From Narcine bancroftii (Eukaryota), in assembly GCF_036971445.1 (NCBI RefSeq), contig NC_091480.1, forward strand, positions 60,264,001-60,328,000: a DNA stretch of 64,000 nt, in the 5' to 3' direction. Below are positions 1 to 64,000 of the stretch, in pieces; the first letter of the stretch is position 1; the number at the start of each line of letters is the position of its first letter. The translations under genes and the position numbers were made by a program. The notes below the pieces were generated by a model. That model had not been told where the DNA came from and searched no databases. It saw only the letters and a program-made list of their open reading frames with translations.

Positions 1-2159
1 GATTTTTTTTGGAAATATTATACTTTTATTTTTCTTTTGTCAACTGCGCTCCTTGTTGCAAAATTATAATCAGCTCCAGTAAAGGGGTTTAATCTCATTT
101 TCGTTCGTTATCACAGAAGCCAGGCGTAAATTCGCGGAAATAATTCTGCTTAATCGTAAAACCCATCATTTAATAACAAATGAATTTAATTAAATTTTGG
201 CGTTTTATTTCAACAGAAATGAAAGCACAACAATTCCGCTTGTTGTGAATTGTAGGATTACATTGCGTTTGGAAGATTTGATTCCAGTTTAAGAACGCGC
301 TTTAAATCGGCGCTGGTGTGGGCCCTCGTTAGTTATAAACGTTCAGTAGCACAACCGAATGATATATGCAAAGTCAAATGTGAAATAATAAAGCAGCCTT
401 CTTTCAAAGTGTTTGTTAATCGATCCACCCCTTGACAAAGGTTTTGGCATCAAGGTCAAGATTTTAAATAGACTTTGAAATAGATTTTGTTTTCGCAAAT
501 AAATGGGCCAAAATGTTGCAACGCCTGAAGTAAAAAAAAAATTTGATCTGTCAATCGCACATCTTTTTTCTGGTTTTAGATCATGTTCGAAAAACAAGAA
601 GAGTTTGAATGATGAAGAATATATTGGTGATAAGAGAGATTAAAACACGTTAAACCTCGGCAGTTCACTTGCTGCCTTGTATTTTTGTACGCTTTTTAAC
701 TGACTGATTGAACAACATATTTTGTAAATCGCTTCCCCTTTTCCTAATGCTACACTTCACACTCGCTGTCGATGGGTCTTTTTGTCTCTGTGGCCGTTTA
801 TTTTTGGCCGCATTCTGTTTCCAGGACAAAGGCAAAAAGGGGTGGCGAGGTTGAACTTTCATAACATTTATCAAGATTGCAAATTTAAATTAAAATTAAT
901 AAATAAAACCGGAGCAAACGTGAGTTATTAACAATACCGACGCTACATTAAACAACAAGGAGACCGCGTTTCCTCTTACAGAATTACACATTTTTTAAAC
1001 TCTCGGAGGCGAAATCTTATTTTGTTTAATTGGATTCATGTAAATTTCAAATGGTTTGTGTTGAATTCGATGTGAAGAAAGTAGGTAACACGATGAAGCC
1101 GAACTGACGAATTTAGTAAAATTCACGTGGGTAAAATTAGCCGGCGTAAAATATCGTGTGTGCGTTTCTCTTTCCTTATGGCGTATTTTATATGTACTTC
1201 TGTGTGTGTATGGTGCATGTGTGCGTGTGCGTGTGTGTGTGTGTGTGTAATGCTGTGTATATATAATTGATGTGTGTGTAATGCTGTGTATATATAATTG
1301 ATGTGTGTGCATTTATAGTTCTGGTATTTCTTGTGTGTGTGTGTCCATATTGTTCGTTTTGTATCATCGTGTGCGCGCGNNNNNNNNNNNNNNNNNNNNN
1401 NNNNNNNNNNNNNNNNNNNNNNNNNNNNNNNNNNNNNNNNNNNNNNNNNNNNNNNNNNNNNNNNNNNNNNNNNNNNNNNNNNNNNNNNNNNNNNNNNNNN
1501 NNNNNNNNNNNNNNNNNNNNNGTGTAAGAGNNNNNNNNNNNNNNNNNNNNNNNNNNNNNNNNNNNNNNNNNNNNNNNNNNNNNNNNNNNNNNNNNNNNNN
1601 NNNNNNNNNNNNNNNNNNNNNNNNNNNNNNNNNNNNNNNNNNNNNNNNNNNNNNNNNNNNNNNNNNNNNNNNNNNNNNNNNNNNNNNNNNNNNNNNNAGG
1701 TGTGTGTGTGTGAGTGCGTTTATCATAGTTTGTGTGTGTGTTTATCATAATGGTTGTGCGTTTATTATAGTGTGTGTTTATCATAGTGGGTGTGTAGGTG
1801 TGTGTGTGTTTAACATAGTGGCTGTGTTTGTTTATCATAGTGGAGAGGGATNNNNNNNNNNNNNNNNNNNNNNNNNNNNNNNNNNNNNNNNNNNNNNNNN
1901 NNNNNNNNNNNNNNNNNNNNNNNNNNNNNNNNNNNNNNNNNNNNNNNNNNNNNNNNNNNNNNNNNNNNNNNNNNNNNNNCATAGTTCACATTTCTTGTTA
2001 TATTCTGACCCGTTATTTATGGCGCTCATATCTTGCCGTCGTATCCAGTTGTCTTTGAAGTCAAAGAGCAATAGAGTCCTACAGCCGCGAGCAGTCCCTT
2101 CGGCCCAACTCATATAGGCCACTGAGTTAGCATTCGGGGCAATAAAAATTTTCCTGTAC

Positions 2160-2420
2160 TTTGTCTATTTCCCTCGAAACCTTACCCATCCTCCACCACT
2201 TCCTGTGGCAGCTCGTTCAACACACCAACCACCCTCTGTGTGAAGAAGGTGCCCTCAGGTCCACTTCAAATCTCTCCCTTTAAACCTTATGTCTCTAGTT
2301 CCAGGATTCACCATATCCAGACACTTCATGATTTTACAAACCTCCATAAAGTCACCTCTCATTCTCCTGTGCTGTAGGGAGAAAATTCCCAGCCAAACCA
2401 ATATCTCCTTTTATCTCAGC
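2160..2420 (-). mobile_element. CR1-type LINE 3' fragment, degenerate
   Basis: ACCACTTCCTGTGGCAGCTCGTTC...ACCACCCTCTGTGTGAAGAA...ATGATTTTACAAACCTCCATAAAGTCACCTCTCATTCT is the reverse complement of the CR1 ORF2 C-terminal region seen at 36540-36760. Confidence 0.65.
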
Positions 2421-2559
2421 CCTGCTGTCACGGTACCATCTGGGAAATCTTTTCTACCCCCTTTCCAAAAACGGTACACTCGAAATTTGCAATCAATAAA
2501 TTTGTGTAACCACAAATATATTTCCATCATGATGACAAAGGAAAATTTGACAGTTAATC

Positions 2560-3200
2560 CCAGAAAAGAGGGCAAACCAGCAGAGCAGAGAACCCAAAAG
2601 AGGGGAATCCAGCCAGCAGAGAATGAATCCATCAGAGAATGGAATCCAGCAGAGGGTGATACCAGCAGAGGGTGAGTCCAGAAGAGAGTGAATCCAGCGG
2701 AGAGTGAACCCAGCAGAGAGAGAATCCAGCAGAGAATTAATCCAACAGAGAGGGATCCCAGCAGAGGGTGATTCCAGCAGATGGTAAATCCACAAGATAA
2801 TGAATCCAGCGGAGAGTGAACCCAACAGAGAGTGAAACGAGCAGAGAGTGAATTCAGTAGAGGGTGAATCAAGCAGAGGGGATACCACCAGAGGATAACA
2901 GTAGAAGGTGAATATCATCAGAGAGGAGATACTAGCAAGTGAATATCATTAGAGAGGGGCTACCGGCAGGGAGGTAATACCAGCAGAGGTGATACCAGCA
3001 GAAGGTCATACCAGGAGAAGCTGAATATCAGAGAGGAGATACAAGCAGAATGTGAATATCATTAGAGAGGGGGTAACAGCAGGGAGGGAATACCAGCAGG
3101 TGATTACCATCAGAAAAAAGATATCAGAGAGGTGATACCAGCAGAAGGTAATTACCATCAGAGAGGAGAACACAGTAGAGAGGGCATTATCTGGCAAATG
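2560..3200. repeat. Degenerate ~16-18-bp minisatellite (GAATCCAGCAGAGAGT / GATACCAGCAGAGG)
   Basis: The CCAGCAGAG core recurs at short intervals throughout, with strong purine strand bias. Confidence 0.85.
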
Positions 3201-3639
3201 TACCACAGAGACTGGAGTAAACGTAATAAAATTCAGAATATATCGCTGAGTTTGAAAGTGCCATGCTGTAGTTCAAATCAAAATTGCGGACTTTAATCTA
3301 ATTTTAGAAGCCTCTGAGAAGAGAGTTGGTTGTGAGTCAACTTATGAGCACACAGATATGGCGGTGGACAAAACAATGGTCCAGACGTTACAAATATATT
3401 TCCCTTGAAGTAGCAGAAACTGGGCATGTATCAGGACTTGTCCATGGCCACTGAAAAAGCAAAGTATTATCTTGTTGAGAAGTGAAAGGTGGGGTAGTGT
3501 TGATGTTCAGATGGATCCATGTCTGCTTACAACTAAGACACTGACGACCACCATTCAGGGACAGCAAAGAATTATGTAGGTCAATGTTTCATTTGCCTTT
3601 GTTGCGAACGGGTTGAGTCCAAATCTAACCCACTTTCTC

Positions 3640-3850
3640 AGAAGTCTGAGGAGATCTGGCATGTCGTCGGATTTCCACAGGTATACTGACCGATTGCAGC
3701 AGCACCTGCTTTAGAAACACGACTGCCCCGGAAAGTAGACGGCTGCTGAAAGCCGCCAACCTGCCCAAGTCCATCACGGCCACCGGCCTCCTGCCCATTG
3801 ACGATGTGAAGCGATGCTGCAGAAAAGCGGCCAATGTCACAAAGGACCAA
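3640..3850 (+). mobile_element. Rex1/Babar-like LINE 3' fragment, degenerate
   Basis: Encodes ...KRCCRKAANVTKD, resembling the RCxxKAxxIIKDPxHP C-terminal motif of this clade; similar to the fragment at 52780-52950. Confidence 0.45.
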
Positions 3851-4199
3851 ACCCCGGCCAGAAACTGGACAACGAAAAGATCAATTGAAAAACCACTTTT
3901 TCTTGCTTTGTTTTCCACTAGAGGGGCCTAAGGGGCCTGTCTCTGTGCTGTAGTGTTCTGTGGTTCTATGGTACCCTTTTGTATTTGCTGTATCATATAT
4001 TTATTGATTGGAGTCGGGGTATCTAACGTACTTGTGAGGCTGCAGAAATAAAGAATTTTCTACATTGCACAAAGAATCTCAGGGTTGTATGTGATGACAT
4101 GTATGCATCTGCCAATAAATTTGACATCTGAATCACGAACTTTTCTCTCATCCACCACATTCGGTGTACTCGGTAAGGCTTGCTCTACAACAGTCGATT

Positions 4200-5077: not shown

Positions 5078-8000
5078 ACAGAGGTACAGGGTATTAGAGT
5101 GACTCTGTGACTCATTGCAGAGTGAAGAGTGTGAGGGTAACGAGAGTCACAGAGTGGGGTGTTAGATTGGGGCACAGAGTGCAGGGTGGGGTGTTAAAGG
5201 GAGTCACAGGGTAAAGGGTGCGGTTTTAGAGTGTGTCACAGAGGGCAGAGTGGGGTATTACAGTGAGTCAAAAAGTGCAGGGTTCGGTGTTACAGTGAGA
5301 CACAGAGTGCAGGATGGAGTGTTACAAGGATTCCCAGAGTGCAGGCTGCGGTGTTACAGGGAGTCACAGAACGCAGGGTGCGATTTTACAGTGAGTCACA
5401 GAATGCAGGGTGTGGTGTTACAGGGAGTCACAAAGTGCAAAGTGCGGTGTTAGAGTGAGTTAAAGAGTGCAGGGTGCGATTTTAATGTGCGTCACAGAGT
5501 ACAGGGTGGGGTGTTACAGTGAATCAAAAAGTGGAGGGTTCGGTGTTACAGCGAGACAGAGTCCAGGATGGGGTGTTACAAGAATTCCCAGAGTGCAGGG
5601 TGCAGTGTTACAGGGAGTCACAGAACGCAGGGTGCGATTTTACAGTGAGTCACAGAGTGCAGGGTGTGGTGTTACAGGGAGTCACAAAGTTCAGGGTGTG
5701 ATATTACAGTGAGTTTCAGCGTGCATGGTGCGTTGTTACAGTGAGTCGCGTAGTGTAAGGTGCAGTGATACATTGAGTCGCAGAGTGTAGGGTGCACTGT
5801 TAAAGGGCCTCACAAAGTGCAGGGTGCGGTGTTATAGTGAATCACAGAGTGCATGTTGCGGTGTAACAGTGGGCACAGAGTGCAGGCTGCGGTGTTACAG
5901 TAGGTTGCAGAGCGCAGGGTGCGATGTTACAGTGAGTCACAGAGTGTACGGGCACTGTTAAAGGGCCTCACAAAGTGCAGGGTGCGGTGTTATAGTGAAT
6001 CACAGAGTGTATGGACACTGTTAAAGGGCGTAACACAGCTCAGGGTGGAGTGTTACTGGGAGTCACAGAGTGCAGGGTAGGGTATCTCATGGAGTCATAA
6101 AGCGCAGGGTGCGGTGTTACAGAGAGTCACAGAGTGCAGGGTGGGGTATTATAGGGAGTTACTGAGGGTAGGGAGGGTGTTACAGTGGGTCACAGAGTGT
6201 TGGGTGCACTGTGCACAAAGAGCGTCACAGAATGCAGCGTGCTGTATTACAGTGGGCACAAAGTGCAGGATGGGGTGTTGCAGTGAGTCACAGAGTTCAG
6301 CGTTGGGTGTAATAGTTAGTCACAGAGTGCAGGATGGGGTGTTACAGTGAGACACAGAGTGCAGGGTGGTGTGTTAGTAGGAGTCACAGAGTGCAGGGTG
6401 GGTTGTTACAGGGAGTCACTGTGTGCAGGGTGGGGTATTACAGTGAGTCACAGAATGTAGGTTGGGGTGTTACAGAGAGTCACAGAGTGCAGCGTCTGGT
6501 TTTTCAGCGAATCACATACTACAGGGCGGGGTGTTACAGTGAGTTACATCGTGCATGGTGCGATGTTATAGTCAGTCGCGGAGTGTATGGTGCACTGGTA
6601 CAATGAGTCACAGAGTGTAGGGTGCACTGTTAATGGGCCTCACAAAGTGCAGGGTGGGTGCTACAGGGAGTAACAGAGTACATGGTGGGGTATTAAAGGG
6701 AGTCACAGAGTGCAGGGTGGGGTGTTACAGGGAGTCACAGAGTGCAGCGTGTGGTTTTTCGGCGAATCACAGACAACAGGACGGGGTGTTACAGTGAGTA
6801 ACATCGTGCATAGTGCAATGTTATAGTGAGTCGCGGAGTGTAGGGGGCACTGGTACAGTGAGTCACAGCGTGTAGGGTGCACTGTTAATGGGCCTCACAA
6901 TGTGCAGGGTGCGGTGTTCTAGCGAATCACAGAGTGCAGGGTGCGGTGTTAGTTAGTCACAGAGTGTAGGGTGGAGCATTAAATGGAGTCACAATGTGCA
7001 GGGTGGGGTATTAGAGTGAGTCACAGAGGATAGGGTGGGGTGTTTCAGTGGGTCACATAGTGCAGGGTAGGGAGTTACAGGCAGTCTCAGAGTGCATGGT
7101 GCGATGTTACAGGGAGTCATAAAATGTTCAATGGGATATTACAGGAAGTAATGGAGTGCAGGGAGTGTGTTGCTGTGTGTCGCAGAGTGCAGGGTAGGCT
7201 ATTACAGGGAGTTAGAGTGCATGTTGGGGTATTACAGGGAGTCACAGAGTGCAGGGTGTGGTTTTACAGCGAATCACAGAGTACAGGGTGGGTGCTATAG
7301 TGAGGTACAGCGCGCATGATGCGATGTTACAGTGAGTCGTGGAGTGTAGGGTAGAGTGGTACAGTGAGTCACAGAGTGCAGGGTGGTATGTTACAGTGGA
7401 TCACAGTGTGCAGTGTGGGTGCTCCCGTGAGTTACAGATGGCAGAATGGGGTATTACAGGGCCTCACAATGTGCAGTGTGGGATGTTACAGGGATTCCCA
7501 GAGTGGAGGGTGCGATGTTACAGTGAGTCACAGAGCGCAGGTTGCGAAGTTAGTGTAAATCACAGAGTGAAGGGTGGGGTGTTACAGTGGGTCACCAAAT
7601 GCAGAGTGGGCAGTTACAGTGTGTCGCAGAGTGTAGAGACCAGTGATAAAGGGCATCACAAAACGCAGGGGTGAGTGTTACAGGGAGTCACAGAGTGCTG
7701 GGGGGGGGGTTATTACAAGACGTAACAGAGTGCAGGATGGGGTGTTACAGTGAATCACAGAGTGCGGGGTGTTGTATTACAGGGAGACGCAGAGTTCATG
7801 GTTTTACACCGAATCAGAGAGTACAGGGTGTGGTGTCACCGTGAGTTACAGGGTGCATGGTGAGTCGCGGAGTGCAGGGTGCACTGACACAGTAAGTCAC
7901 AGAGTGCAGGGTGCAATGTTAAAGGGACTCACAATGTGCAGGTTGTGGTGCTTTAGTGAATCACAGAATGCAGTGTGCAGTATTACAATGGGTCACAGTG

Positions 8001-11000
8001 TGCTGGGTGAGGTATATTACAGTTAGTTTCAGAGTGCAGGGTGCGGTGTCACAGTAGGTAACAGAGTGCAGGGTGAGATGTTACAGTAAGTCATAGAGTG
8101 TAGTGAGGGACATTACAGGGAGTCACAGAATGCAGGGTGGGGTATTACAGGGAGTCACATATGGTAGGGAGGGGTGTTTCAGTGGATCAGAGTGCAGGGC
8201 GGGGATTTACAGGGAGTCACAGAGCGCAGGTTGTGTTATTACAGGGAGTCACAGAGTGCAGGGTGCAGTTTCAAAGTAGGCCACAGTGCAGAGTGGGGTG
8301 TTATAGTAGGTCACAGAGTGCAGGGTGTGGTGCTACAGTGGGTCACAGAGTGCAGGGTGGGGTGTTACAATGAGTCATCGAGTGCAGGGTGCGGTGTTAC
8401 AGGGAGTCAGAGTGAAGGCTGGGTTTTTTCTGTGAGTCATGGAGTGCAGGGTGCAGTGTTACATTGAGTCACAGAGTGCGGGGTGCGATATTAGTGTGAG
8501 TCACAGAGTAACATGTTGGTGTTACAGTGAAAAACAGAGTGCAGGGTGGGGTATTACAGATAGTCGTAGAGTGTAGGGTGCAGTGATAAAGGGCGTCACA
8601 TAGCGCAGGGTGGACTGTTACAGGGAGTCACTGAGTGTAAGGTGGTGTGTTACAGGGAGTCACAGAGTGCATGGTGGGGTATTAAAGGGAGTCACAGTGT
8701 GCAGGGTCGAGTGTTACAGTGAGTCACAAAGTGTAGGATGGGGTGCGACAGTGAGACACAGAGTGCAGGGTTGGGTGTTAGTGGGAGTCACAGAGTGCAG
8801 GGTGGGTTATTACAGGGAGTCACAGTGTGCAGGGTGGAGTATTAGAGTGAGTCACAAAATGTAGGGTGGGGTGTTACAGGGAGTCAGAGTGCAACGTGTC
8901 ATTTTTCAGCGAATCACAGAGTACAAGGTGAGGTGTTACAGTGAGTTACAGGTGCATGGTGCGATGTTATAGTGAGTCGCGGAGTGGAGGGTGCACTGGT
9001 ATAGTGAGTCACAGAGTGTAGGGCACACTGTTAATGGGCATCACAAAGATCAGGGTGCAGTGTTAGAATGGATCACAGAGTGCAGGGTGCGATGTTACAG
9101 TGAGTCACAGAGTGTAGGGTGGAGCATTACAGGGAGTCACAGTGTGCAGGGTGGGGTATTGGTGGGAGTCACAGAGGATAGGGTGGGGTGTTTCAGTGGG
9201 TCACAGAGTGCAGGGTGGGGAGTTACAGGCAGTCTCAGCGTTCAGGGTGCAGTATTACAGGGGGTCATATAGTGTACGATTGGGAATTACAGGAAGTAAT
9301 GGAGTTCAGGGTGCTGTGTTGCTACCCATCACAGAGTGTAGGGTGGGGTATTACAGGGAGTCACAGAGTGCAGGGTGTGGTTTTACAGCGAATCACAGAG
9401 AACAGGGTGTGGTGTTACAGTGAGTTACAGCGTGCAAGTTGCGATGTTACAGTGAAACGTGGAGTGGTACAATGAGTCACAGAGTGTAGGGTGCACTGTT
9501 AAAGGGCGTCACAAAGCGCAGGTTATAGGGAGTAACAGAGTGCAAGGTGGGGTATTACAGTGAGTCACAGAGTTCAGTGTGCGATGTTACAGTAGGTTAC
9601 AGAGTGTAGGGTGCTGTGATACAGTGAGTTACCGAGTGTACGGTGCACTGTTAAAGGGCCTCAAACCGTGCAGGGTGGGGTGTTACAGTGAGTCACAGAG
9701 CTCAGCGTGAGGTGTTACAGTGAGTCATAGAGTTCAGCGTTGGGTGTTACAGTACTTCACAGGGTGTAGAGAGCGGTGTGACAGTGAGTTACAGAGTACA
9801 GGGTGCGATATTAGAGTGAGTCACAGAGTGAACGGTGGGGTGTTACGGTGAGAAACAGAGTGCAGGGTACGGTGTTACAGCAGGTCACAAAGTGCGTGGT
9901 GGGATGTTACAGTGCGTCACGGAATGCAGGGTGTGGTGCTACAGAGGATCACATAATGCAGGGTGGCGTGCTACAGTGCGTCGCAGAGTGCAGGGTGCCG
10001 TTTTACAGGGCCTCACAATGTGCAGGGTGGGATGTTACAGGGATTCCCAGAGTGCAGGGTGCGTAGTTATAGTGAGTCACAGAGCGCAGGTTGCGATGTT
10101 AGAGTGAGTCACAAAGTGAATGGTGGGGTGTTACAGTGGGTCACCAAGTGCAAAGTGGGGAGTTAAAATGTGTCGCAGAGTGAAGGGTGCAGTGATAAAT
10201 GGCGTCACAAAGCGCAGGGCCGAGTGTTACAGGGAGTCACAGAGTGCTGGGTGGGGTGTTACAGGGTGTCACAGATTCCGCGGTGGGGTGTTACAGTGTG
10301 TCACATATGGTAGGGTTGGGTGTTTCATTGGGTCACAGAGGGTGTGTTATAACAGGAATTCACGGAGTGCAGGATGCGGTGTTACAGTGTGTTACAGAGT
10401 GCAGGGTGGGGTATTACAAGGTTCACAAAGTGAAGGGAGTGGGGGTAACGTTAGTCACAGAGTGTAGGGTGGTGTTTTACAGTGGGTCACAGAGTGCAGG
10501 GTTGGTGTTACCGTGAGTCACAGAGGGCAGAGTAGGGTATTAAACGGCCTCACAAAATGCAGGGTGGGATGTTAAAGGGATTCCCAGAGTATAGGGTGCG
10601 GTGTTACAGTGAGTCACAGAGCCAGGGTGCGATGTTAGTGTAAGTGACAGAGTGAAGGGAGGGGTGTTACAGTGGGTCACCAAGTGCAAAGTGGGGAGTT
10701 ACAATGTGTCGCAGAGTGAAGGATGTAGTGATAAATGGCGTCACAAAGCGGAGGGCCGAGTGTTACAGGGAGTCATAGAGTGCATGGAGGCGTATTGCAG
10801 GGAGTCACAGTGTGCAGGGTGGGGTGTTACAGTGAGTCACAGAGTGCGGGGTGGGGCATTACAGGGTGTCACAGAGTGCATGGTTGCCTATTACAAGGTG
10901 TCATAGAGCCCAGCTTGTGGTTTTACAGCGAATCACAGAGTACAGGGTGGGGTGTTACAGTTAGTCACAGAGTGCAGGATGGGGTGTTACAGTGAGACAC

Positions 11001-12663
11001 AGAGCGCAGGGTGCGGTGTTACAGTGTGTTACAAAGTGTAGGGTAGGTATTACAGGGAGTCACAAAGTGAAGGGTGTGGGGTAACATTAGTCACAGAGCG
11101 CAGGTTGCGAAGTTAGTGTAAGTTACAGAGTGAAGGGTGGGGTGTTACAGTGGGTCACCAAGGGCAAAATGGGGAGTTACAGTGTGGCGCAGAGTGTGGG
11201 GTGCAGTGATAAAGGGCGCCATAAAACGGAGGGGTGAGTGTTACAGAGTGTCACAGAGTGCACGGTGGTGTGTTACACTGACTCACAGAGTGCAGGGTGG
11301 CGTGTTACAGGAAATTACAGAGTGCATGGTGGCGTAGTACAGGAGTCACAGCGTGCAGAGTGGTGTGTTACAGTTAGTCACAGAGTGCAGGATGGGGTGT
11401 TACAGGGAGTCACAGAGTGCATGGTTGCTTATTACAGTGTCACAGAGTGCAGTGTGTGGCTTCACAGCGAATCACAGAGTACAGGGTGGGGTGTTACAGT
11501 GAGTTACAGAGTGCATGGTGAGTAGTGGAGTGTATGGTGCAATGGTACAGTGAGTCACAGAGTGTAGGGTGCACTGTTAAAGGGCCTAACAATGTGCAGG
11601 GTGCGGTGTTACAGTGGGTCACAGTATGCAGGGTGGGGTACTACAGTTAGTCACAGAGTGCAGGCTGCGGTGTTACAGTAGGTAACAGAGTGCAGGGTGT
11701 GATGTTACAGTGAGTTACAGCGTGAAGGGTGGGGTATTACAGTGAGTGACGAAGTGCAGGATGCGGTGCTACAGTAGGTCACAGAGTGCAGGATGGTGTG
11801 TTACTGTGAGTCACAGAGTGCAGAGTAGGGTATTACAGGGAGTCACTAAGCGCAGGGCGGGGTGTTACAGTTAGTACCAGAGTCCAGGGTGCAATGTTAC
11901 AGTGAGCCACAGAGGCCAGGGTGCGGTGTTACAGTGTGTCGCAATGTGTAGGGTACAGTGTTAAAGGTTGTTCACAAAGCACAGGGTGGTGTGTTACAGG
12001 GAGTCACAGAGTGCAAGGTGGTGTGTTACAGGGAGTCACAGAGTGCAGGCTGGGGTGTTACTGGGAGTCACAGAGTGCATGGTGGTGTGTTACAGGGAGT
12101 CACAGAGTGCAAGGTGGTGTGTTACAGGGAGTCACAGTGTGCAGGGTGGGGTGTTACAGTGAGTCACAGAATGTAGGGTGGGGTGTTACAGGGAGTCACA
12201 CAGTGCATTGTGGTGTATTACAGGGAGTCACAGAGTGCAGCGTGTGTTTTACAGCGATTCACAGAGTACAACGTGAGGTGTTACAGTGAGTTACAGCGTG
12301 CATGGTATAGTGAGTCATGAAGTGTACGGTGTGGTGTTATAGTGAATCACAGAGTGCAGGGTGGGGTTTTATGGTGAGTCACAGAGTGCAGGGTTAAGTA
12401 TTACAGGGAGTCAAGGAGGATAGGGTGGGATGTTACAGTGAGTACCAGAGTGCAGGGTGCAATGTTACAGTTTGTCACAGAGCATGAGTGCAGTGTTGCA
12501 GTGTGTCGCACAGTGTAGGGTGCAGTGTTACAGTGAGTCACAGAGTGTAGGGTGCACTGTTAAAGAGCATCACAAATCGCAGGGTGAATTGTTACAGCTA
12601 GTCATAGAGTGCAGGGTGGGGTCTTGCAGTGAATCAAGGAGTGCAGGGAGTGGTGTTACAGTG
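5078..12663. repeat. Large 32-bp-unit satellite, consensus ~CACAGAGTGCAGGGTGGGGTGTTACAG(T/G)GAGT
   Basis: Period 32 is directly visible (GAGTCACA at 12001 and 12033). ~7.6 kb implies roughly 235 diverged units. It accounts for all VTECRVGCYSESQSAG-type ORFs. Confidence 0.97.
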
Positions 12664-13356: not shown

Positions 13357-13429
<73 letters not shown>

Positions 13430-43830: not shown

Positions 43831-43894
<64 letters not shown>

Positions 43895-45837: not shown

Positions 45838-46036
45838 AACACAGAAGTCTGCAGACGCTGTGATTGAAGTACAAACAGTCTGGAGGAACTGAGCCGGTCT
45901 CACTGCGTCCAGAGGAGGTCAAGACAAATAACCGACGTCCTTGAAGAAGGGCTCAGGTCCGATACGTCGGCATTATACCTATCTCTTATGAACGCTGCAA
46001 GACTGGCGACGTTCCTCTTCCATTTCGGTGCGTTTG
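45838..46036. mobile_element. Penelope-derived inverted-repeat remnant with degenerate hammerhead-like core
   Basis: Imperfect inverted arms (GGAGGAACT...GCGTCCAGAG...CCGACGT / ACGTCGG...TTATGAACGC...GTTCCTC) around TTGAAGAAGGGCTCAGGTCCGATAC. Confidence 0.55.
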
Positions 46037-46289
46037 TATTAAGATTCACAGTGCGCAGACGCATTGGGTCACTTTTTCTTCTGGAAAGTTAATTTCCTCA
46101 CAGATTTTTTAAAGCACCCCAGTCCGATCATGAACGCTGACTTTAAAATAGCTCATTTTATAGAAGCGAGTTAAGACTCAGTGGCAGAGCCACATTGTGG
46201 CAGAGATATTGATAAATAAGATTTCTTTTGGTAAAAAAACTGTGGAAAGAATTTTAAATCCGTGTTAATTTCACCCCTCACTTCACAGC

Positions 46290-47597
46290 GTCGCCAACTC
46301 AAATGCCTGCTTCATACTATCTTATTGGCAAAACAACTGAAGTAATCCTCCCCAGGCAGAGCCCTGAAGCAACAAGGAATATTTTTCTTAATTGCTTTTT
46401 TTCAATCATCTATAATTGATCAAGCCTTCTGTCTTTGGAAAGTTAAAGGAATCGTTTCTTTTTTTTTTCATATTTGTTTCTAGATGGTGGTTTAAAGTCT
46501 TTTGAACAATTGTCTAATAAATACAATATACCGAAGTCACATTTTTTAGATACTTTCAAATGAGACATCTTCTGAATACTTTACTGCAAAACTTTCCAAC
46601 ATCGTCCCAACCGAATTTAATTGATACTTTTTTCATTTGAACATTTCACATAAGGGTTTAATAGGCAGCAATTATAATAAGTTATTAAGATTAATAACAA
46701 GATTAAAGGGGCCTGGGAAGAGGAACCTCATTTACATCTTCCAGAGGAATTATGGGAGAAGATTTTTGGATGGGTTTAAAACTCTTCAATATGTGCTTGT
46801 CGTTCTTTGATTCAGCTTAAAGTGGTGAATCGGGCTCGTGTATCGAAAGATAAAGTGGCCCGTATTTTTTTCTAACGGTTGCCCTATTTTTGATGTAAAT
46901 CAGAAATGGTTTCCCTATCTCATATGTTTTGGTCATGTCCTATGTTGGAGAGGTTTTGGATAGATATTTATAAGACTTTATCAGCTATACTGGATATCAA
47001 TTTGCAAACTGACCAATTGACGGCTCTTTTGGAATTCTAGTTCCTGGAGTGGGACGAGTTCCCACTTCTATACATCGGACTGTAGCCTTTGTTGGCGAGA
47101 AGAACTATCTTATTTAAATGAAAAGATTCTAATCCACCTATTTTAATTCAGTGGCTTTCTCAAATTATGTCATGTTTAAGTTCATAGAAAGTTGGGAGCC
47201 GTACATTTGATACCTCTGTTAAATTTGAAGAGACTTGGCGACATTTTATAAATTATTTCCACATGGCTGAGTTGGAAGAATTATTTTCTCTTCCGGACTA
47301 TATTTTATTTCTTTTCTCTTTGTTGGTGAAGACCAGACGATAAAGTTTTATCAATAAACACTCAGGATAAGCTGCCCAATATTTTACTTTTCTTCAGATA
47401 AGATGGAGTTTTATATAATTATTATTTTTTATTTTTCCGTTTGAGGCGATGAAAGCATATTCGTTAATTGTGTTGTGACACAATATGTTCTATCACATGA
47501 TGTCATATCGTGATATTTTTGTTCCCCTTTGTGATTATGTTCTCCTATTTTCCTCGTGTATTGTTTACCTATAATATGATTAATTTTTAAAAAAAGA
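46290..47597 (+). mobile_element. Second, older L1-clade LINE 3' fragment
   Basis: Encodes pieces such as SFEQLSNKYNIPKSHF-RYFQMRHLL and LSHMFWSCPMLERFW (L1 ORF2 C-terminus); many disruptions, T-rich 3' UTR, A-rich end near 47590. Confidence 0.75.
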
Positions 47598-47899
47598 ACT
47601 GGGATGGCTTTCTCTGACATAGCCCCACATAGTTAACCGCAGCAGTTAAGCAACCCCGGGAGCGTTCAATCGGGTGGTATAAGAGGAGGAAGGAAGGGGG
47701 ACTGTAATGGGTTGGGGGGGGGGGGGGGGGGGGACGAAAGCGCGATGCAGTGACTGCAATCAAAGCGCCGAGCCATGAAAAACGGGCCAAGCCCAATCCA
47801 CAATTAAACCACCTGCCCCAAATACAGGAGGACCCAGGCAAGAAGGCAGCTGCTGCAGACCACTGACGATAGGGCTTGAACTCTCCCGATAAAGATGTA

Positions 47900-48485
47900 G
47901 ATTAAGAAGACAAGAAATAGAAGCAGGAGTCGGCCACTCGGCCCGTCGAGCCTGCTGCCCCTTTCAGTGAGATCGCAGCTGATCTGATGGTGGATTCAAC
48001 TCCACTGACCCGCCCTTTCCCCTTCAACCTTAATTCCCAGACCTGCTCAAAAATCTCTTTTGTGTCTTCAGTACATTTAATGAGGCAGTACCCGGGTAGA
48101 GAATCCCACAGATTCCCTACTCTTTGGAAGAAGCAGATTCTCCTCATCTCCGTCCTGAATTTATTCCCAGATAATCCCACAAATTCCCCACTTTCTAGGA
48201 GAAGCAGATTCTCCTCATCTCCGTCCTGAATCTACTCCCAGAGAATCCCACAGATTCCCCACTCTCTGGGAGAAGCAGATCTTCCTCATCTCCGCCCTGA
48301 ATCTTCTCCCAGAGAATCTCACAGATTCCCCACTTTCTGGGAGAAGCAGTTCCACCTCATCTCCGTCCTGAATCTACTCCCCTGAACCTTGAGGCTCCGT
48401 CCCCTCGTTCTGGTCTCACCTCCCAGTGAAAACAACCTCCTGCTTCTGTTCCTTTCATCATTTCGATATGTTCCTACAAGATCCC
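47900..48485 (-). mobile_element. CR1 3' end with internal 4x71-bp tandem duplication
   Basis: The minus strand encodes FRTEMRRICFFQRVGNLWDSLP. AATCCCACAGATTCCC-type starts at 48102, 48173, 48244 and 48315. CR1 tail GGCTCGACGGGCCGAGTGGCCGACTCCTGCTTCTATTTCT. Confidence 0.85.
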
Positions 48486-50240: not shown

Positions 50241-50479
50241 CTAAAACAGACTCAGTGCTTGCTCACGCATGAGTAATCGCTTCTTCTTCATCCGTCGGTT
50301 CTGGAACCAAATCTTCACCTGCTGATCGGTGAGGGCGAGACGGTCGGAAAGTTCCCGCCGCCTCTGCCGCGGAATGAACTCGTTCATCATGAATTCCCCT
50401 TCCAACTCTGCAATCTGCATCTTGGAGTAAGGTTTCCGCTTCTTTCTTGTGCGAGACTGCAGGGGATACCAGGAAGTGG
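50241..50479 (-). CDS. hoxc12: Homeobox protein Hox-C12, coding exon 2 (homeodomain)
   Basis: Pyrimidine tract and AAG|CC acceptor in phase 1, then [81 protein letters not shown]. The C-terminus matches HoxC12 (REQALSFF). Spliced product ~245 aa. Confidence 0.94.
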
Positions 50480-51412: not shown

Positions 51413-51911
51413 CAGAAGCGCCAAAAGTTTCTCCGTGGCTGAAAGGCGAAGAGTCATCGGGCTCCTGGACCGATTTCCTGGCCCGCTCTGAATCCGATCC
51501 TAAGATGGGACAGTTCTCTCGGGTGTCCGCGGCCTGCGGGAATGGATACTTGGACATTTCGACGCCGACCGACGCTGGGGAGACGGTGGCGGAAGAGGAG
51601 ACGCTGCCTTTCTGACCACCGGCGTCGTTAATAAACGTCTTGGACGAAAGCTCCGATTGGGTCACGTCGCAGGGCCGATTGCAGGAAGAATTAGAGAGAG
51701 CGGGGATTGCAGCGAGGTAACATTGCGCAGCCGGATCTCCCGGTGCCCAGGGCAAAGCGCAGACGGTGTCTCGCCGTGGGTAGGTCAGGGGCGGTAGCCG
51801 GGATAACTGCGAGCTGGGGGCACGGAAATTGGGCAGGAAGAACCTATCTCCCGTGTGAATGTTGAGCAGAGGTCCCACGAATCCAGGACGGAGGCCAGTG
51901 TGGTCTCCCAT
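51413..51911 (-). CDS. hoxc12: Homeobox protein Hox-C12, coding exon 1
   Basis: ATG at 51911 gives MGDHTGLRPGFVGPLLNIHTGDRFFLPNFRAPSSQLSRLPPLTYPRRDTVCALPW, matching HoxC12 (human [55 protein letters not shown]). Strong donor TCTG|GTGAGT, 499 nt, phase 1. Confidence 0.94.
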
Positions 51912-52265: not shown

Positions 52266-52305
<40 letters not shown>

Positions 52306-53439: not shown

Positions 53440-53472
<33 letters not shown>

Positions 53473-56298: not shown

Positions 56299-57125
56299 CA
56301 GTGCAGGATTTACATATGAGCCGAGCGGGCAGCAACCCAGGACCTCATAATCTGGGAAAGGGGCCCGGCTTCTTGCCAAAAAAAATTAAAAGTTGCCATT
56401 AATTTTATTTCATTTGTAACAATAAAATCAGGGACGTACCAAGGCCAAAATAATGTGTCAGGAACACATTGATGGGAGTGCCGAACGCACTAGCCCTTGA
56501 ATTTACTGTCAAGGCCCAGTTGCTTAGTAACATTGCACACGTATGTATAACGATTATACAAGTTTTTCACGTGGGTTTTTCTCGCAAGGCCGGTTCTCAA
56601 CTTATGGGAATTCCAGCAATCGCTCATGCTGGTGAGAGCTCTGAGATTCGTATCTATCCTGATAGCGTGCGTTTTGAGAGCAATAGGAGTCTTACATATC
56701 ATTGCAAATCACAATAATATTTAATTTACGGTCAACGATATCCCAAGATTGGTTGTCGGATCTGAGCATTTCTTGCAAGGAAAATGATGAACAGCGACCT
56801 ACTGATTTTTAATGACATAATTGATCCGTTTGCGTCCAAAAATGTTCGAAAGAAACTGTTCTGACTTTGTATATAGTGTCATGTTGAAAAATACCTATGA
56901 GTGGTCTGTGTGAACGTCTTCATTAATTCTATACTTTTGTAAACTTATTAAAGGCAATAATTTTATAAATAATCTTTTTATCAATGCTAAAATTTCAGCA
57001 ATGATCTGCTATCATTGAGTAGATAGAGAAGAGAACGAGGTTTTGTTTTTCATGATCAGATGCTATTGTTTGGGCCTCCTAAAGTCTCCTAGCCCAGGGC
57101 CTCCAGTTGCTTTAATCCGGCACTG
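56299..57125. mobile_element. Non-autonomous DNA transposon, hAT-like
   Basis: Imperfect terminal inverted repeats CAGTGCAGGATT (56299) and AATCCGGCACTG (ends 57125), with subterminal CCCAGG/GGGCC motifs at both ends. No clean 8-bp TSD and no intact transposase. Confidence 0.55.
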
Positions 57126-57399
57126 GGTGCTCACTGTTCAATGCGTGAATGTTGAACGTGGACATTAGCAGAACAGCATCGATGTGGCAGATTTTCTGGT
57201 TTATTTAGTTCAGACTACATTCCACTATATTTCACCCCATATTGCACGTACATTTTGGTTCATTTAGTATACGTATATTGCAATAGTATCTATGAACTAG
57301 ATCAGTTGTATCCACAGAGTTTATTAAAATGTAGAATTTTAAAAAATCGATACATTGCATCTAATTCAATATATGCGTCATGTCAAAATATTTCCCTAT

Positions 57400-59190
57400 C
57401 TTTCTTTGCCTTGGCTTCGCGGACGAAGATTTATGGAGGGGTAATGTCCACGTCAGCTGCAGTCTCTTTTGTGGCTGACAAGTCCTATGCGGGACAGGCA
57501 GACACGGTTGCAGCGGTTGCAAGGGAAAATTGGTTGGTTGGGGTTGGGTGTTGGGTTTTTCCTCCTTTGTCTTTTGTCAGTGAGGTGGACTCTGCGGTCT
57601 TCTTCAAAGGAGGTTGCTCCCGCCAAACTGTAAGGCGCCAAGATTCATGGTTTGAGGCGATATCAGCCCACTGGCGGTTGTCAATGTGGCAGGCACCAAG
57701 AGATTTCTTTAGGCAGTCCTTGTACCTCTTCTTTGGTGCACCTCTGTCTCGGTGGCCAGTGGAGAGCTCGCCATATAACACGATCTTGGGAAGGCGATGG
57801 TCCTCCATTCTGGAGACGTGACCTACCCAGCGCAGTTTGATCTTCAGCAGCGTGGATTCGATGCTGTCGGCCTTTGTCATCTCGAGTACTTCGATGTTGG
57901 AGATTAAGTTGCTCCAATGAATGTTGAAGATGGAGTGGAGACAACGCTGGTGGAAGCATTCTAGGAGCAGTAGGTGATGCCAGTAGAGGACCCATTATTC
58001 AGGAGCCAAACAGGAGTGTGGGTATGACAACGGCTCTGTAATCTTTGTGAAGTTTTTCAGTTGGTTGTTTTTCCAGACTCTTTTGTGTAGTCTTCCAAAG
58101 GCGCTATTTGCCTTGGCGAGTCTGTTGTCTATCTCGTTGTCGATCCTTGCATCCGATGAAATGGTGCAGCCGAGATAGGTAAACTGTTTGACCGTTTTGA
58201 GTTTTGTGTGCCTGATGGAGATGTGTGGCGGGGGGGGGGGGGGGGGGGGCTGGTAGTCATCGTGGGGAGCTGGCTGATAGAGGACCTCAGTTTTCTTCAG
58301 GCTGACTTCCAGGCCAAACATTTCAGCAGTTTCCCGCAAAACAGGACGTCAAGCGCTGAAGAGCTGGCTCTGAATGGGCAACTAAAGCGGCATCATCTGC
58401 AAAGAGTAGTTCACGGACAAGTTGCTCTTGTGTCTTGGTGTGAGCTTGCAGGCGCCTCAGATTGAAGAGACTGCCATCCGTGCGGTACCGGATGTAAACA
58501 GCATCTTCATTGTTGAGGTCTTTCATGGCTTGTTTCAGCATCATGCTGAAAAAGATTGAAAAGAGGGTTGGTGCAAGAGCGCAGCCTTGCTTCACGCCAT
58601 TGTTTATGGAGAAGGGTTCAGAGAGCTCATTGCTGTATCTGACCCGACCTTGTTGGTTTTCATGCAGTTGGATAACCATGTTGATGAACTTTGGGGGGCA
58701 TCGGAGGCGCTCTAGTATTTGCCAAAGCCCTTTCCTACTCACGGTGTCGAAGGCTTTGGTGAGGTCAACAAAGGTGATGTAGAGTCCTTTGTTTTGTTCT
58801 CTGCACTTTTCTTGGAGCTGTCTGAGAGCAAAAACCATGTCAATTGTTCCTCTGTTTGCGTGAAAGCCACACTGTGATTCTGGGAGAACATTTTCGATGA
58901 CACTAGGTATTATTCTACTTAGGAGAATCCTAGCGAAGATTTTTCTTGCAATGGAGAGCAGCGTGATTCCCCTGTAGTTTGAGCAGTCTGATTTCTCGCC
59001 TTTGTTTTTGTACAGGGTGATGATGATGGCATCACGAAGGTCCTGAGGCAGCTTTCCTTGGTCCCAGCAGAGCTTGAAAAACTCATGCAGTTTGGCATGC
59101 TGAGTTTTGCCGCCAGCCTTCCAGACCTCTGGGGGATTCCATGCATACCTGCTGCTTTGCCACTTTTCAGTTGTTCAGTTGCCTTATATG
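57400..59190 (-). mobile_element. RTE-clade LINE, 5'-truncated, disrupted (copy 1)
   Basis: RT motifs FVDLTKAFDTVSR, GVKQGCALAPTLF, LFADD, FTYLG; C-terminal CNRC...H zinc finger. ATGTCAAAATAT occurs on both flanks (57380-57391, 59188-59199) as a probable TSD. Confidence 0.93.
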
Positions 59191-59737: not shown

Positions 59738-60248
59738 TCGACCGAGGCCGGGCCGCCGTCTCCCCCTTGCTCCTGCCCGGATCGAGGCTGCCGCCGTCTA
59801 CCCTTCGCCCGGACCGGGGCCGGGGCGCCGCTGCTGCTCTCCCTGTGCCCGGACTGGGGACGCCGCCTCCCACTCCCTGTCCGGGCCGGGGCCTCCTCCT
59901 GCCTCTCTCGGACCGAGGCTGGGGCCGCCGTCTCCCCCTTGCTCCTGCCCTTTATCGGGGCCGCCGCCGTCTACCCTTCGCCCGGACCGGGGCCGGGGCC
60001 GCTGCTGCTCTCCCCTGTGCCCGGACTGGGGCCGCCGCCTCCCACTCCCTGTCCGACCGGGGCCTCCGCCTGCCTCACTCGACCGAGGCCGGGGCCGCCG
60101 TCTCCCCCTTGCTCCTGCCCGGATCGAGGCCGCCGCAGTCTACCCTTCGCCCGGACCGGGGCCGGGGCCGCTGCTGCTCTCCCTGTGCCCGGACTGGGGC
60201 CGCCGCCTCCCACTCCCTGTCCGGACCGGGGCCTCCGCCTGCCTCATG
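59738..60248 (+). repeat. GC/CpG-rich tandem repeat, 3 x ~170 bp, built of ~30-bp CCGGACCGGGGCCGCCG submonomers
   Basis: Units start TCG(G)ACCGAGGC at 59738, 59908 and 60079. Confidence 0.92.
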
Positions 60249-62023
60249 TCGAACAACTGAAAAGTGGCAAAGCAGCAGGTATGGATGGAATCCCCCCAGA
60301 AGTCTGGAAGGCTGGCGGCAAGAACTCTGCATGCCAAACTGCATGAGTTTTTCAAGCTTGTTGGGACCAAGGTAAACTGCCTCAGGATCTTCGTGATGCC
60401 ACCATCATCAACCCTGTACAAAAACAAAGGCGAGAAATCAGACTGCTCAAACTACAGGGGAATCACGTTGCTCTCCATTGCAGGCAAAATCTTCGCTAGG
60501 ATTCTACTAAATAGAATAATACCTAGTGTCGCCGAGAATATTCTCCCAGAATCACAGTGCGGCTTTCGCAAACAGAGGAACTACTGACATGGTCTTTGCC
60601 CTCAGACAGCTCCAAGAAAAGTGCAGAGAACAAAACAAAGGACTCTACATCACCTTTGTTGACCTCACCAAAGCCTTCGACACCGTGAGCAGGAAAGGGC
60701 TTTGGCAAATACTAGAGCGCATCGGATGTCCCCCAAAGTTCCTCAACATGATTATCCAACTGCACGAAAACCAACAAGGTCGGGTCAGATACAGCAATGA
60801 GCTCTCTGAACCCTTCTCCATTAACAATGGCGTGAAGCAAGGCTGTGTTCTCGCACCAACCCTCTTTTCAATCTTCTTCAGCATGATGCTGCACCAAGCC
60901 ATGAAAGACCCCAACAATGAAGACGCTGTTTACATCCGGTACCCGCACGGATGGCAGTCTCTTCAATCTGAGGCGCCTGCAAGCTCACACCAAGACACAA
61001 GAGCAACTTGTCCGTGAACTACTCTTTGCAGACCATGCCGCTTTAGTTGCCCATTCAGAGCCAGCTCTTCAGCGCTTGACGTCCTGCTTTGCGGAAACTG
61101 CCAAAATGTTTGGCCTGGAAGTCAGCCTGAAGAAAACTGAGGTCCTCCATCAGCCAGCTCCCCACCATGATTACCAGCCCCCCCACATCTCCATCGGGCA
61201 CACAAAACTCAAAACGGTCAACCAGTTTACCTATCTCGGCTGCACCATTTCATCAGATGCAAGGATCGACAATGAGATAGACAACAGACTCGCCAAGGCA
61301 AATAGCGCCTTTGGAAGACTACACAAAAGAGTCTGGAAAAACAACCAACTGAAAAACCTCACAAAGATAAGCGTATACAGAGCCGTTGTCATACCCACAC
61401 TCCTGTTCGGCTCCGAATCATGGGTCCTCTACCGGCACCACCTACGGCTCCTAGAACGCTTCCACCAGCGTTGTCTCCGCTCCATCCTCAACATCCATTG
61501 GAGTGCTTACATCCCTAACGTCGAAGTACTCGAGATGGCAGAGGTCGACAGCATCGAGTCCACGCTGCTGAAGATCCAGCTGCGCTGGATGGGTCACGTC
61601 TCCAGAATGGAGGACCATCGCCTTCCCAAGATCGTGTTATATGGCGAGCTCTCCACTGGCCACCGTGACAGAGGTGCACCAAAGAAAAGGTACAAGGACT
61701 GCCTAAAGAAATCTCTTGGTGCCTGCCACATTGACCACCGCCAGTGGGCTGATAACGCCTCAAACCGTGCATCTTGGCGCCTCACAGTTTGGTGGGCAGC
61801 AACCTCCTTTGAAGAAGACCGCAGAGCCCACCTTACTGACAAAAGGCAAAGGAGGAAAAACCCAACACCCAACCCCAACCAACCAATTTTCCCCTGCAAC
61901 CGCTGCAATCGTGTCTGCCTGTCCCGCATCGGACTTGTCAGCCACAAACGAGCCTGCAGCTGACGTGGACTTTTTACCCCCCTCCATAAATCTTCGTCCG
62001 CGAAGCCAAGCCAAAGAAAAATA
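59739..62023 (+). mobile_element. Composite insertion: GC-rich tandem leader + 5'-truncated RTE-clade LINE (copy 2), 12-bp TSD
   Basis: TSD AGACTGTACGGT at 59727-59738 and 62024-62035. The RTE part (~60249-62023) has NYRGITLLS, FVDLTKAFD, GVKQGC, LFADH, FTYLG and CNRCNRVCLSRIGLVSHKRAC, split over three frames. Confidence 0.93.
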
Positions 62024-63041: not shown

Positions 63042-63081
<40 letters not shown>

Positions 63082-63132
63082 AGGAGGGTGTGGATTGATA
63101 TGTGTGGGTGTGTGTATGTGGGTATGGTGTGC

Positions 63133-63190
<58 letters not shown>

Positions 63191-63376
63191 CTGTCTGTCT
63201 GTCTATCAGTCTGACTGTACGGTTTTACATTGGATTGTGGAGAATAAAAAAGCGCGCCGGTGGGTAGTTAATTTTCAGAAGTGTACTATTTCGTGTCATC
63301 TGTGTCAGACCGTATATAATTTGGTATGGGTTTGAACGCATATGACGAGTTTGTGTCAATACTATGCATATACTCG

Positions 63377-63412
<36 letters not shown>

Positions 63413-64000
63413 CTGTCTATGTGTGGATTTACGTCTGTCCGTAGTAAATGGTGCATGTGTCAGCATGTCTGTTTATCTGTTTCTTTCTCTCGGAGATTGT
63501 GGGCCTGTGCGCACGTGTACGTGCGTGTGTGTGATTGCGCCCGCATGTGTGTGCGTGCTTGCGTGGATATATCTGCATCTGCTCACATGGTTATGGATCT
63601 CTTAATCTTTGCCTGAGTCTGAGCAACACTAAACACTTCTTTTCCCAAAGTCTCAGTTCCGCTGCAGGCGATTTCTGGCCTTCTTCGATCGGAACCCTGT
63701 AACTGAACCTATTCAGCTTCCTTCTCCTCTCTCTCCCCACCCCCCCCCCCCCCCCCCCCCCCACCACCACCACTCTCTCCCTGACTCGGCCTAAAAAAGC
63801 GGGCTTTTAGCAGCATCCAGAAAGAGATGTGCAGAAAACTACAAAATACTATTTTTTCAAAACGTACACAAGTAAATCTACAGATCTCCCTTTCCCCGGC
63901 AACGATCGCTACCCTCATTTATGAAGGTGCCGCTGCCTTGCATTGTTTTCGTGTACTGTTTTCACTCGCTTTTCATTCTCAGAGCCGCAAAACAGATTAT

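What the first reader, a model, noticed from the sequence alone, without database searches (positions are those of the whole stretch)
1..64000. Hox cluster that has lost compaction and repeat exclusion
Seen: 26.7 kb between the HoxC12 stop and the HoxC11 start, over 21 kb after HoxC11 with no next Hox gene, and over 12 kb before HoxC12 with none. The gaps contain at least seven TE types plus satellites. Known: gnathostome Hox clusters are normally compact and TE-poor. Inference: cluster-level regulatory constraint has relaxed while coding constraint persists, i.e. a cluster partway through disintegration.
Basis: partly seen in the sequence, partly recalled or inferred. Interest (0 to 1): 0.75.

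Follow-up and report, generated by a model that had tools for sequence, protein, structure and literature searches.

The report
Eroded HoxC cluster of electric ray
This is the HoxC12-HoxC11 piece of an electric ray's HoxC cluster, whose gene loss and invasion by repeats are already described for sharks and rays; the one fresh detail is that the DNA right around HoxC11 still seems to keep transposons out.

Summary
The measurements are right. HoxC12 and HoxC11 lie on the minus strand, 26,701 bp from stop to start, with no other homeobox in the readable sequence. Both proteins are 100% identical to RefSeq Narcine bancroftii (Caribbean electric ray) HoxC11/C12. This species' five HoxC genes (C6, C8, C9, C11, C12) are listed in a 2025 preprint, so the empty flanks most likely reflect loss of C10 and C13. 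Three corrections. (1) The C12-C11 span is only about 1.4 times the human one, and recognisable transposons account for the excess. (2) Repeat exclusion is lost in patches: a 16.7-kb stretch over HoxC11 has no recognisable transposon and keeps its CpG (o/e about 0.9), while the distal half of the gap is 59% transposon. (3) The state is old and the C11-C12 linkage is kept in 5 of 5 species checked, so 'partway through disintegration' is not shown. HoxC12 has drifted (unique homeodomain T27P, a modelled 36-nt extra exon). Already known; low interest.

The parts
51413..51911 (-). HoxC12 exon 1 (ATG at 51,911; GT donor)
   Evidence: 100% identity to RefSeq Narcine bancroftii Hox-C12a-like, XP_069761030.1
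50925..50960 (-). 36-nt in-frame middle exon used by the RefSeq HoxC12 model (12 extra residues); real use not shown
   Evidence: AG/GT borders; the three-exon join equals P0008; the two-exon join is also open (245 aa); insert motif in 0 of 123 orthologues
50241..50479 (-). HoxC12 last exon with homeobox; homeodomain position 27 is Pro
   Evidence: Pfam PF00046 E 1.6e-19; Thr in 122 of 123 other HoxC12, Met in 1, Pro in none
22891..23539 (-). HoxC11 exon 1 (ATG at 23,539)
   Evidence: 100% identity to XP_069761464.1; PF12045 E 5e-29
21511..21742 (-). HoxC11 exon 2 with homeobox
   Evidence: PF00046 E 6.7e-21; the spliced frame equals P0003, 293 aa; homeodomain 56-60 of 60 identical to five shark and ray orthologues
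19381..36039 (.). 16.7-kb stretch over HoxC11 and 12.5 kb of its 5' flank with no recognisable transposon; microsatellite-rich, CpG not depleted
   Evidence: Longest TE-free run, permutation p 9e-5 (25 elements), 0.002 (18 merged events), 0.004 (13 tool-supported elements); CpG o/e 0.89 in 11,073 strictly masked unique bases of 16,800-36,039
36040..48450 (.). Transposon block in the distal part of the C11-C12 gap
   Evidence: 8,428 of 14,201 bp of 36,040-50,240 are TE; unique DNA in 36,040-44,600 has CpG o/e 0.39-0.41
39446..43095 (-). Decayed, 5'-truncated L1-clade LINE, apparently inserted into an older CR1-like fragment
   Evidence: Human LINE-1 ORF2p E 5e-27 and 2e-25; RVT_1; 14-bp direct repeat at both ends; the CR1 name is recalled
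43394..44522 (.). Solo-LTR-like element, 1,129 bp
   Evidence: Ends TG...CA with short inverted termini; no clean target duplication; class inferred
36290..36900 (+). CR1-like LINE 3' fragment; related pieces at 2,194-2,465, 15,899-16,035 and 47,900-48,450
   Evidence: Self-similarity within the window; no Pfam hit; Atlas gives unnamed eukaryotic clusters only; family name recalled
37360..38016 (.). Two SINE-like copies in opposite orientation; a third partial copy at 54,200-54,300
   Evidence: 75.6% over 242 bp and 83% over 41 bp; a polymerase III B-box in one copy
46400..47330 (+). Second, more decayed L1-like 3' fragment
   Evidence: Weak tblastx match to the first L1, E 2e-4
57397..59176 (-). 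RT-LINE copy A (RTE-like; name recalled)
   Evidence: RVT_1 E 4e-27; 92.5% identical to copy B; 12-bp repeat near both ends
59738..62023 (+). RT-LINE copy B with a GC-rich 169-bp tandem head; young insertion
   Evidence: Exact 12-bp target duplication; RVT_1; Atlas RVT_1 clusters score 0.98; tandem head
56299..57125 (.). 827-bp non-coding element with 14-bp imperfect terminal inverted repeats (DNA-transposon-like)
   Evidence: an 8-bp repeat lies 3-4 bp outside the ends
5150..12663 (.). 32-bp satellite, about 237 diverged copies, 7.5 kb, 3' of HoxC11
   Evidence: TRF score 4,562, 69% matches
13357..15207 (.). Degenerate CA-based tandem array
   Evidence: TRF

Best explanation
The window is the posterior end of the HoxC cluster of the electric ray Narcine bancroftii, in the chromosome block homologous to the shark and ray X. 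It shows the known elasmobranch condition. Selection for a compact, repeat-free cluster was relaxed early in sharks and rays; C13 and C10 were lost in this lineage; LINEs, SINEs, an LTR, a DNA transposon and satellites filled the freed space. What remains under selection is the single genes and, by inference, their nearby cis-regulatory DNA. HoxC11 is strongly conserved and sits in a 16.7-kb TE-free, CpG-intact domain, while new insertions pile up, partly nested, in blocks further away. Shown here: gene structures, identity, spacing, TE layout, CpG pattern, protein conservation. From papers: species gene list, X homology, contrast with other clusters in other species. Inferred: that selection keeps the HoxC11 domain clear and that it is unmethylated in the germ line.
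For: 100% identity to named Narcine records on a 103,180,129-bp sequence, the length given for chr12, which carries C6, C8, C9, C11 and C12. Repeat-invaded, gene-poor HoxC in zebra shark and red stingray. HoxC11 homeodomain 56-60 of 60 identical against 53-69% in the N-terminal part; HoxC12 53-56 of 60 against 44-55%. Long batoid HoxC12 branches. Span minus TEs is 21,975 bp against 21,488 bp in human. TE-free run p 9e-5 to 0.004. Unique-DNA CpG o/e 0.85 window-wide against 0.55 in TEs, and a published vertebrate mean of 0.345 and about 0.44 for fishes and amphibians.
Against: No genome was held, so HoxA/B/D and background repeat density of this species were not measured. TE calls lack a library, so the 'TE-free' stretch may hide old elements; it is 26% tandem or low-complexity and has 980 unreadable bases in its intergenic part. 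High CpG is not special to the HoxC11 domain: unique DNA beside the young LINEs 5' of HoxC12 is as high (1.16). A 24-base core of the published HOTAIR conserved element was not found within 3 mismatches in readable sequence. No HoxD12/A11/D11 sequences were in my tree, so C-orthology rests on best hits and database names.
Confidence: 0.85

Rival explanations
1. Ongoing disintegration: cluster-level control is gone and the genes are on their way to dispersal or loss, HoxC12 first.
For: Skates lost the whole cluster and horn shark C11 is annotated as a pseudogene. Zebra shark Hoxc12 transcripts were not seen. Narcine HoxC12 has a long branch (0.53), a unique T27P and a modelled extra exon. Young LINE insertions lie 5-10 kb upstream of HoxC12.
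Against: Both frames are intact with canonical splice sites. C11 and C12 share a sequence record in 5 of 5 species where both were retrieved (Narcine, Hypanus, Mobula hypostoma, Pristis, Heptranchias). All five red stingray HoxC genes are transcribed in embryos. The state is at least about 200 My old.
Confidence: 0.25
2. Chromosomal context, not Hox-specific relaxation, drives the repeat load: the cluster sits in the ancestral X or pseudoautosomal block, where tandem repeats and GC rise whatever the genes are.
For: HoxC lies in shark pseudoautosomal regions. The authors of 10.1101/2025.06.08.657570 speculate that invasion followed sex-chromosome adoption, and stingray HoxB, fused to the same chromosome, is invaded too. 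55% of the DNA 3' of HoxC11 is tandem or low-complexity.
Against: The X identity of Narcine chr12 is not validated. Unique DNA here is only 41% GC. Context alone does not predict a TE-free run centred on HoxC11. This reading can hold together with the best explanation.
Confidence: 0.35
3. Genome-wide scaling: all four clusters of this species are equally expanded, so nothing is special about HoxC.
For: Lungfish clusters expand with genome size, including hoxc11-hoxc12; frog C13-C12 is 63.4 kb. Not testable here.
Against: In zebra shark, HoxA, B and D are not invaded while C is; in red stingray C is more repetitive than the other clusters, and A and D keep their gene sets.
Confidence: 0.07
4. 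Assembly artefact: satellites and gaps inflate the spacing or hide C10/C13.
For: 21 N runs, 5 of them 186 bp or longer; authors note fragmentary assembly of HoxC regions.
Against: N is only 1,131 of 26,701 bp in the gap. The inserted elements have intact ends with target duplications. No first-exon or flanking trace of another Hox11/12-like gene was seen (C10/C13 first exons were not used as queries).
Confidence: 0.04

Closest known systems
Narcine bancroftii HoxC genes on chr12 (10.1101/2025.02.26.637739; section 20 and passages read)
   Same: The same locus: C11a and C12a on a 103,180,129-bp chromosome, in the block homologous to the elasmobranch X; list C6, C8, C9, C11, C12.
   Different: The passages read give the gene list and synteny, not spacing, repeat layout, CpG or HoxC12 substitutions.
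Red stingray HoxC cluster (10.1101/2025.06.08.657570; section 10, passages and first part read)
   Same: Batoid HoxC with fewer genes, longer intervals and repeat load like non-Hox DNA; C11 and C12 kept, C10 and C13 not listed; described as escaped from structural constraint.
   Different: Different order of rays; keeps C3, lacks C8; fused with HoxB on X1; transcription shown; 'Narcine' has 0 occurrences in its main text.
Zebra shark HoxC cluster (PMC10620051; section 11 and passages read)
   Same: C11 and C12 in a massively repeat-invaded 180-kb cluster, fast-evolving proteins, other clusters not invaded.
   Different: Shark; pseudoautosomal location shown; Hoxc12 transcripts not detected.
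Unevenly expanded Hox clusters of lungfish, frog and caecilian (PMC7875771, PMC4470032; passages read)
   Same: Patchy expansion with repeat hotspots and locally constrained intervals; hoxc11-hoxc12 is among the expanded lungfish intervals.
   Different: There all clusters are affected to some degree and posterior gene content is mostly kept; in elasmobranchs the erosion centres on HoxC and includes gene loss.
Holocephalan HoxC (PMC12952989; passages read)
   Same: Nearest outgroup with the same genes.
   Different: Constrained cluster with ten genes including C10 and C13: the ancestral state.

Membership tests
HoxC11 / HoxC12 orthologues | Abd-B-type homeodomain plus paralogue-specific N-terminus | tested here: met
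   PF00046 and PF12045. Exon 1 alone retrieves 5 of 5 proteins named C11 and 4 of 4 named C12. None of the best 120 of 400 full-length hits is named D12.
HoxC11 / HoxC12 orthologues | Phylogenetic grouping with C rather than A or D paralogues | tested here: inconclusive
   The tree of 15 of 124 C12 proteins puts Narcine with five other rays (100/99), but no D12 outgroup was held.
Eroded elasmobranch HoxC cluster | Host is a shark or ray | tested here: met
   100% identity to Narcine bancroftii records
Eroded elasmobranch HoxC cluster | Reduced gene set | tested here: met
   Two homeoboxes in 64 kb. The five-gene list without C10 and C13 comes from a paper, not from my own scan of the chromosome.
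Eroded elasmobranch HoxC cluster | Heavy repeat invasion and longer intervals | tested here: met
   24% recognisable TE and 58% all repeats plus low-complexity window-wide; C12-C11 span 1.4 times human
Eroded elasmobranch HoxC cluster | More repetitive than HoxA and HoxD of the same genome | not testable with these tools
   No genome held
Eroded elasmobranch HoxC cluster | Location in the ancestral X block | not testable with these tools
   Reported in 10.1101/2025.02.26.637739; the chromosome length matches the records
Eroded elasmobranch HoxC cluster | Faster protein evolution | tested here: met
   C12 N-terminus 44% to Heptranchias, Callorhinchus and Latimeria, which are 67-69% to each other; long ray branches
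Canonical compact gnathostome Hox cluster | Transposons excluded between genes | tested here: not met
   8,428 bp of TE in the C11-C12 gap
DNA methylation valley (Polycomb-kept unmethylated domain) | Multi-kb region with low CpG decay over a developmental gene | tested here: met
   CpG o/e 0.89 over 16,800-36,039; concept from the abstract of PMC5806489
DNA methylation valley (Polycomb-kept unmethylated domain) | Measured hypomethylation and Polycomb/H3K27me3 binding | not testable with these tools

The most novel reading that the evidence does not exclude
In the eroded ray HoxC cluster, constraint has not vanished but shrunk from the cluster to gene-sized islands. HoxC11 keeps an unmethylated, transposon-free domain of about 17 kb close to the ancestral spacing, insertions are confined to methylated blocks between domains, and HoxC12 is caught in early decay (a homeodomain T27P seen in 0 of 123 orthologues and a newly recruited 36-nt exon). 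The electric ray would then be a natural deletion map of which Hox cis-regulatory DNA cannot be interrupted.
Probability: 0.35. Interest if true: 0.45.

Novelty: already known. Interest (0 to 1): 0.2.

Why it matters
Hox clusters are the textbook case of repeat exclusion, and elasmobranch HoxC is the known exception. This window adds the repeat layout for a fourth order of rays, whose gene list is already in a preprint. Its use is as a comparison point: if the TE-free, CpG-intact zone around HoxC11 recurs in stingray, sawfish and sharks, it marks the minimal regulatory DNA that survives when cluster-wide constraint is lifted, which bears on why Hox genes stay clustered.

Tried and rejected
Whole-genome comparison with HoxA/B/D: no genome held. 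Expression: no RNA holder listed for the HoxC12 stretch, and three same-species runs kept as contigs gave no cover on HoxC11 exon 1; neither is evidence for or against expression. RNA families: 0 Rfam matches at gathering score in the window; 14 weak matches 3' of HoxC11 are microsatellite noise and none is mir-196. tRNA/tmRNA: 0. Degraded extra homeoboxes: none. HOTAIR conserved element core: 0 matches within 3 mismatches; an 11-base partial match seen by eye near 32,183 was rejected as likely chance, since many 11-mers of the oligo could have matched. Naming TE families by tools: CR1-, Rex1- and Penelope-like pieces got no Pfam support; the Rex1-like and Penelope-like pieces did not match each other; the SINE paper gave nothing usable. 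dN/dS was not computed because no coding DNA of orthologues was available. No structure was predicted for T27P; the PDB search gave only an engrailed construct. Earlier findings of the scan: none. Literature: seven searches showed no paper on repeat layout or CpG inside the Narcine HoxC cluster. Hara 2018, King 2011 and Kuraku 2023 were not read, figures are not held, and the bioRxiv supplements (gene inventories, repeat cover per cluster) were closed and may bear on this.
Full report
What is there. Six-frame scanning finds exactly two homeoboxes, both on the minus strand. Pfam confirms them in 2 of 237 open frames scanned (158 shorter frames were not scanned), and tblastn with 12 Hox11/12 proteins finds no degraded third one. 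HoxC11 has two exons (23,539-22,891 and 21,742-21,511, GT-AG) that give exactly the 293-aa RefSeq protein of Narcine bancroftii. HoxC12 runs from 51,911 to 50,241 and gives the 257-aa RefSeq protein if a 36-nt middle exon is included. Both records lie on a 103,180,129-bp sequence, the length that 10.1101/2025.02.26.637739 gives for electric ray chr12. The gap from C12 stop to C11 start is 26,701 bp, with about 21.5 kb and 12,089 bp of Hox-free flank. 3,444 bases in 21 N runs cannot be read.

Repeats. Tandem repeats cover 56% of the readable DNA 3' of HoxC11, mostly one 32-bp satellite of about 237 copies, but only 10% of the gap and 9% of the 5' flank. Six kinds of interspersed element have sequence evidence: an L1-clade LINE with a 14-bp target duplication; two RT-LINE copies 92.5% alike, each with a 12-bp flanking repeat; a four-copy CR1-like family and a three-copy SINE family; a 1,129-bp solo-LTR-like element and an 827-bp element with terminal inverted repeats. 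The names RTE, CR1, Rex1/Babar, Penelope and MITE are recalled, and the last three kinds rest on my reading by eye only. Counting all 25 intervals (13 tool-supported, 12 by eye), TEs make up 24% of the window, 32% of the gap and 44% of the 5' flank.

How unusual is the spacing? Less than claimed. The human HOXC12-HOTAIR-HOXC11 span is 21,488 bp (PMC3541083, passages; it includes untranslated ends). The span here from C12 start to C11 stop is 30,403 bp, or 21,975 bp without the recognisable TEs. C13-C12 is 22.8 kb in a caecilian and 63.4 kb in a frog (PMC4470032, passages), so 12 kb without C13 proves little alone. C11 to C8 spans about 40 kb in both amphibians, so 21.5 kb without a next gene is a real departure. 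The published list for this species is C6, C8, C9, C11 and C12 (section read whole), which makes loss of C10 and C13 the simplest reason for both empty flanks. C13 is missing from all five batoid lists read, while C10 is kept in sawfish and devil ray; these lists rest on annotation.

Repeat exclusion is lost in patches. The 12,500 bp next to the HoxC11 start hold no recognisable TE, and the remaining 14,201 bp of the gap are 59% TE, with nesting. The TE-free run from 19,381 to 36,039 is longer than random placement gives (p 9e-5 with 25 elements, 0.002 with 18 merged events, 0.004 with the 13 tool-supported ones). After strict masking, unique DNA in 16,800-36,039 has CpG o/e 0.89, against 0.39 for unique DNA inside the TE block and 0.55 for TEs. 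Published genome means are 0.345 for vertebrates and about 0.44 for fishes and amphibians, and Narcine groups with the more depleted amniotes (10.64898/2026.09.02.747768, passages). This fits a long-unmethylated domain of the kind described for developmental genes (PMC5806489, abstract only). Against: no repeat library was available; the stretch is 26% tandem or low-complexity; unique DNA near the young LINEs is equally CpG-rich (1.16); and the HOTAIR conserved core (PMC7139118, passages and one supplement row) was not found in readable sequence.

Coding constraint. The HoxC11 homeodomain is 56-60 of 60 identical to five shark and ray orthologues, against 53-69% in the N-terminal part. For HoxC12 the figures are 53-56 of 60 and 44-55%. 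HoxC12 evolves fast in rays. Narcine differs from the consensus homeodomain at 6 positions, as do most other rays, but Pro at position 27 is unique: 122 of 123 others have Thr and one has Met. The 12 residues from the middle exon occur in 0 of 123 orthologues, and skipping that exon restores a gap-free match to other rays. Whether the exon is used, and whether either gene is expressed, could not be shown.

What is known. The red stingray HoxC cluster is described as reduced, elongated, as repetitive as non-Hox DNA and escaped from structural constraint, with all five genes transcribed (10.1101/2025.06.08.657570, section 10, first part and passages). The zebra shark cluster is massively invaded, unlike A, B and D (PMC10620051, section 11 and passages). 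PMC13097845 restates this as established (first part and passages). Chimaeras keep a constrained ten-gene cluster (PMC12952989, passages). HoxC sits in shark and ray pseudoautosomal regions (PMC12318234, passage). A river stingray draft lists a different reduced set (PMC10787021, passages). Lungfish show uneven expansion that includes hoxc11-hoxc12 (PMC7875771, passages).

Mechanism and verdict. Most likely (0.85), cluster-wide selection for compactness lapsed early in elasmobranchs, perhaps helped by the move into the sex-chromosome block (the authors' speculation). Genes were then lost piecemeal and repeats filled the space, while the surviving genes and their nearest regulatory DNA stayed under selection. 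'Partway through disintegration' is possible, since skates lost the cluster. But C11 and C12 share a sequence record in 5 of 5 species where both were retrieved, across splits of about 209-212 My, so a long-lived relaxed state fits at least as well. Novelty: already known. Interest 0.2. The local HoxC11 island and the drift of HoxC12 were not found in the seven literature searches and are worth a comparative check.

Noticed in passing
window 50,925-50,960 (-): The RefSeq HoxC12 model uses a 36-nt in-frame middle exon with good AG/GT signals; its 12 residues are in 0 of 123 orthologues. It is either a new exon or a modelling artefact.
   Followed up: partly
window 50,274-50,453 (-), homeodomain position 27: Thr to Pro in HoxC12, seen in none of 123 other HoxC12 proteins; Mobula birostris has Met there. 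The residue precedes helix 2 (recalled).
   Followed up: partly
window 57,397-62,023: Two RT-LINE copies, 92.5% alike and about 0.6 kb apart in inverted orientation; their shared part starts at the same point, each has its own flanking duplication, and one has a GC-rich 169-bp tandem head. This suggests a young non-autonomous family.
   Followed up: partly
window 5,150-12,663: The 32-bp satellite consensus holds an AP-1-type motif: 36 exact sites in the array against 4 in the rest of the window. It lies roughly where HoxC10 would be expected.
   Followed up: no
window 1-2,100 and 62,024-64,000: AT-rich unique DNA with CpG o/e 1.2-1.3 at both window ends, possibly the edges of further unmethylated domains (towards HoxC9, and at the former HoxC13 site).
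   Followed up: no
window 48,098-48,381: A 71-bp unit in 4 copies inside a CR1-like fragment: a minisatellite forming from a LINE piece.
   Followed up: no
window 23,574-23,657: An 84-bp AG/CT microsatellite sits about 35 bp upstream of the HoxC11 start codon, and HoxC11 carries a run of nine histidines.
   Followed up: no
window 2,613-3,209: 16-bp and 48/96-bp minisatellites between two CR1-like fragments.
   Followed up: no
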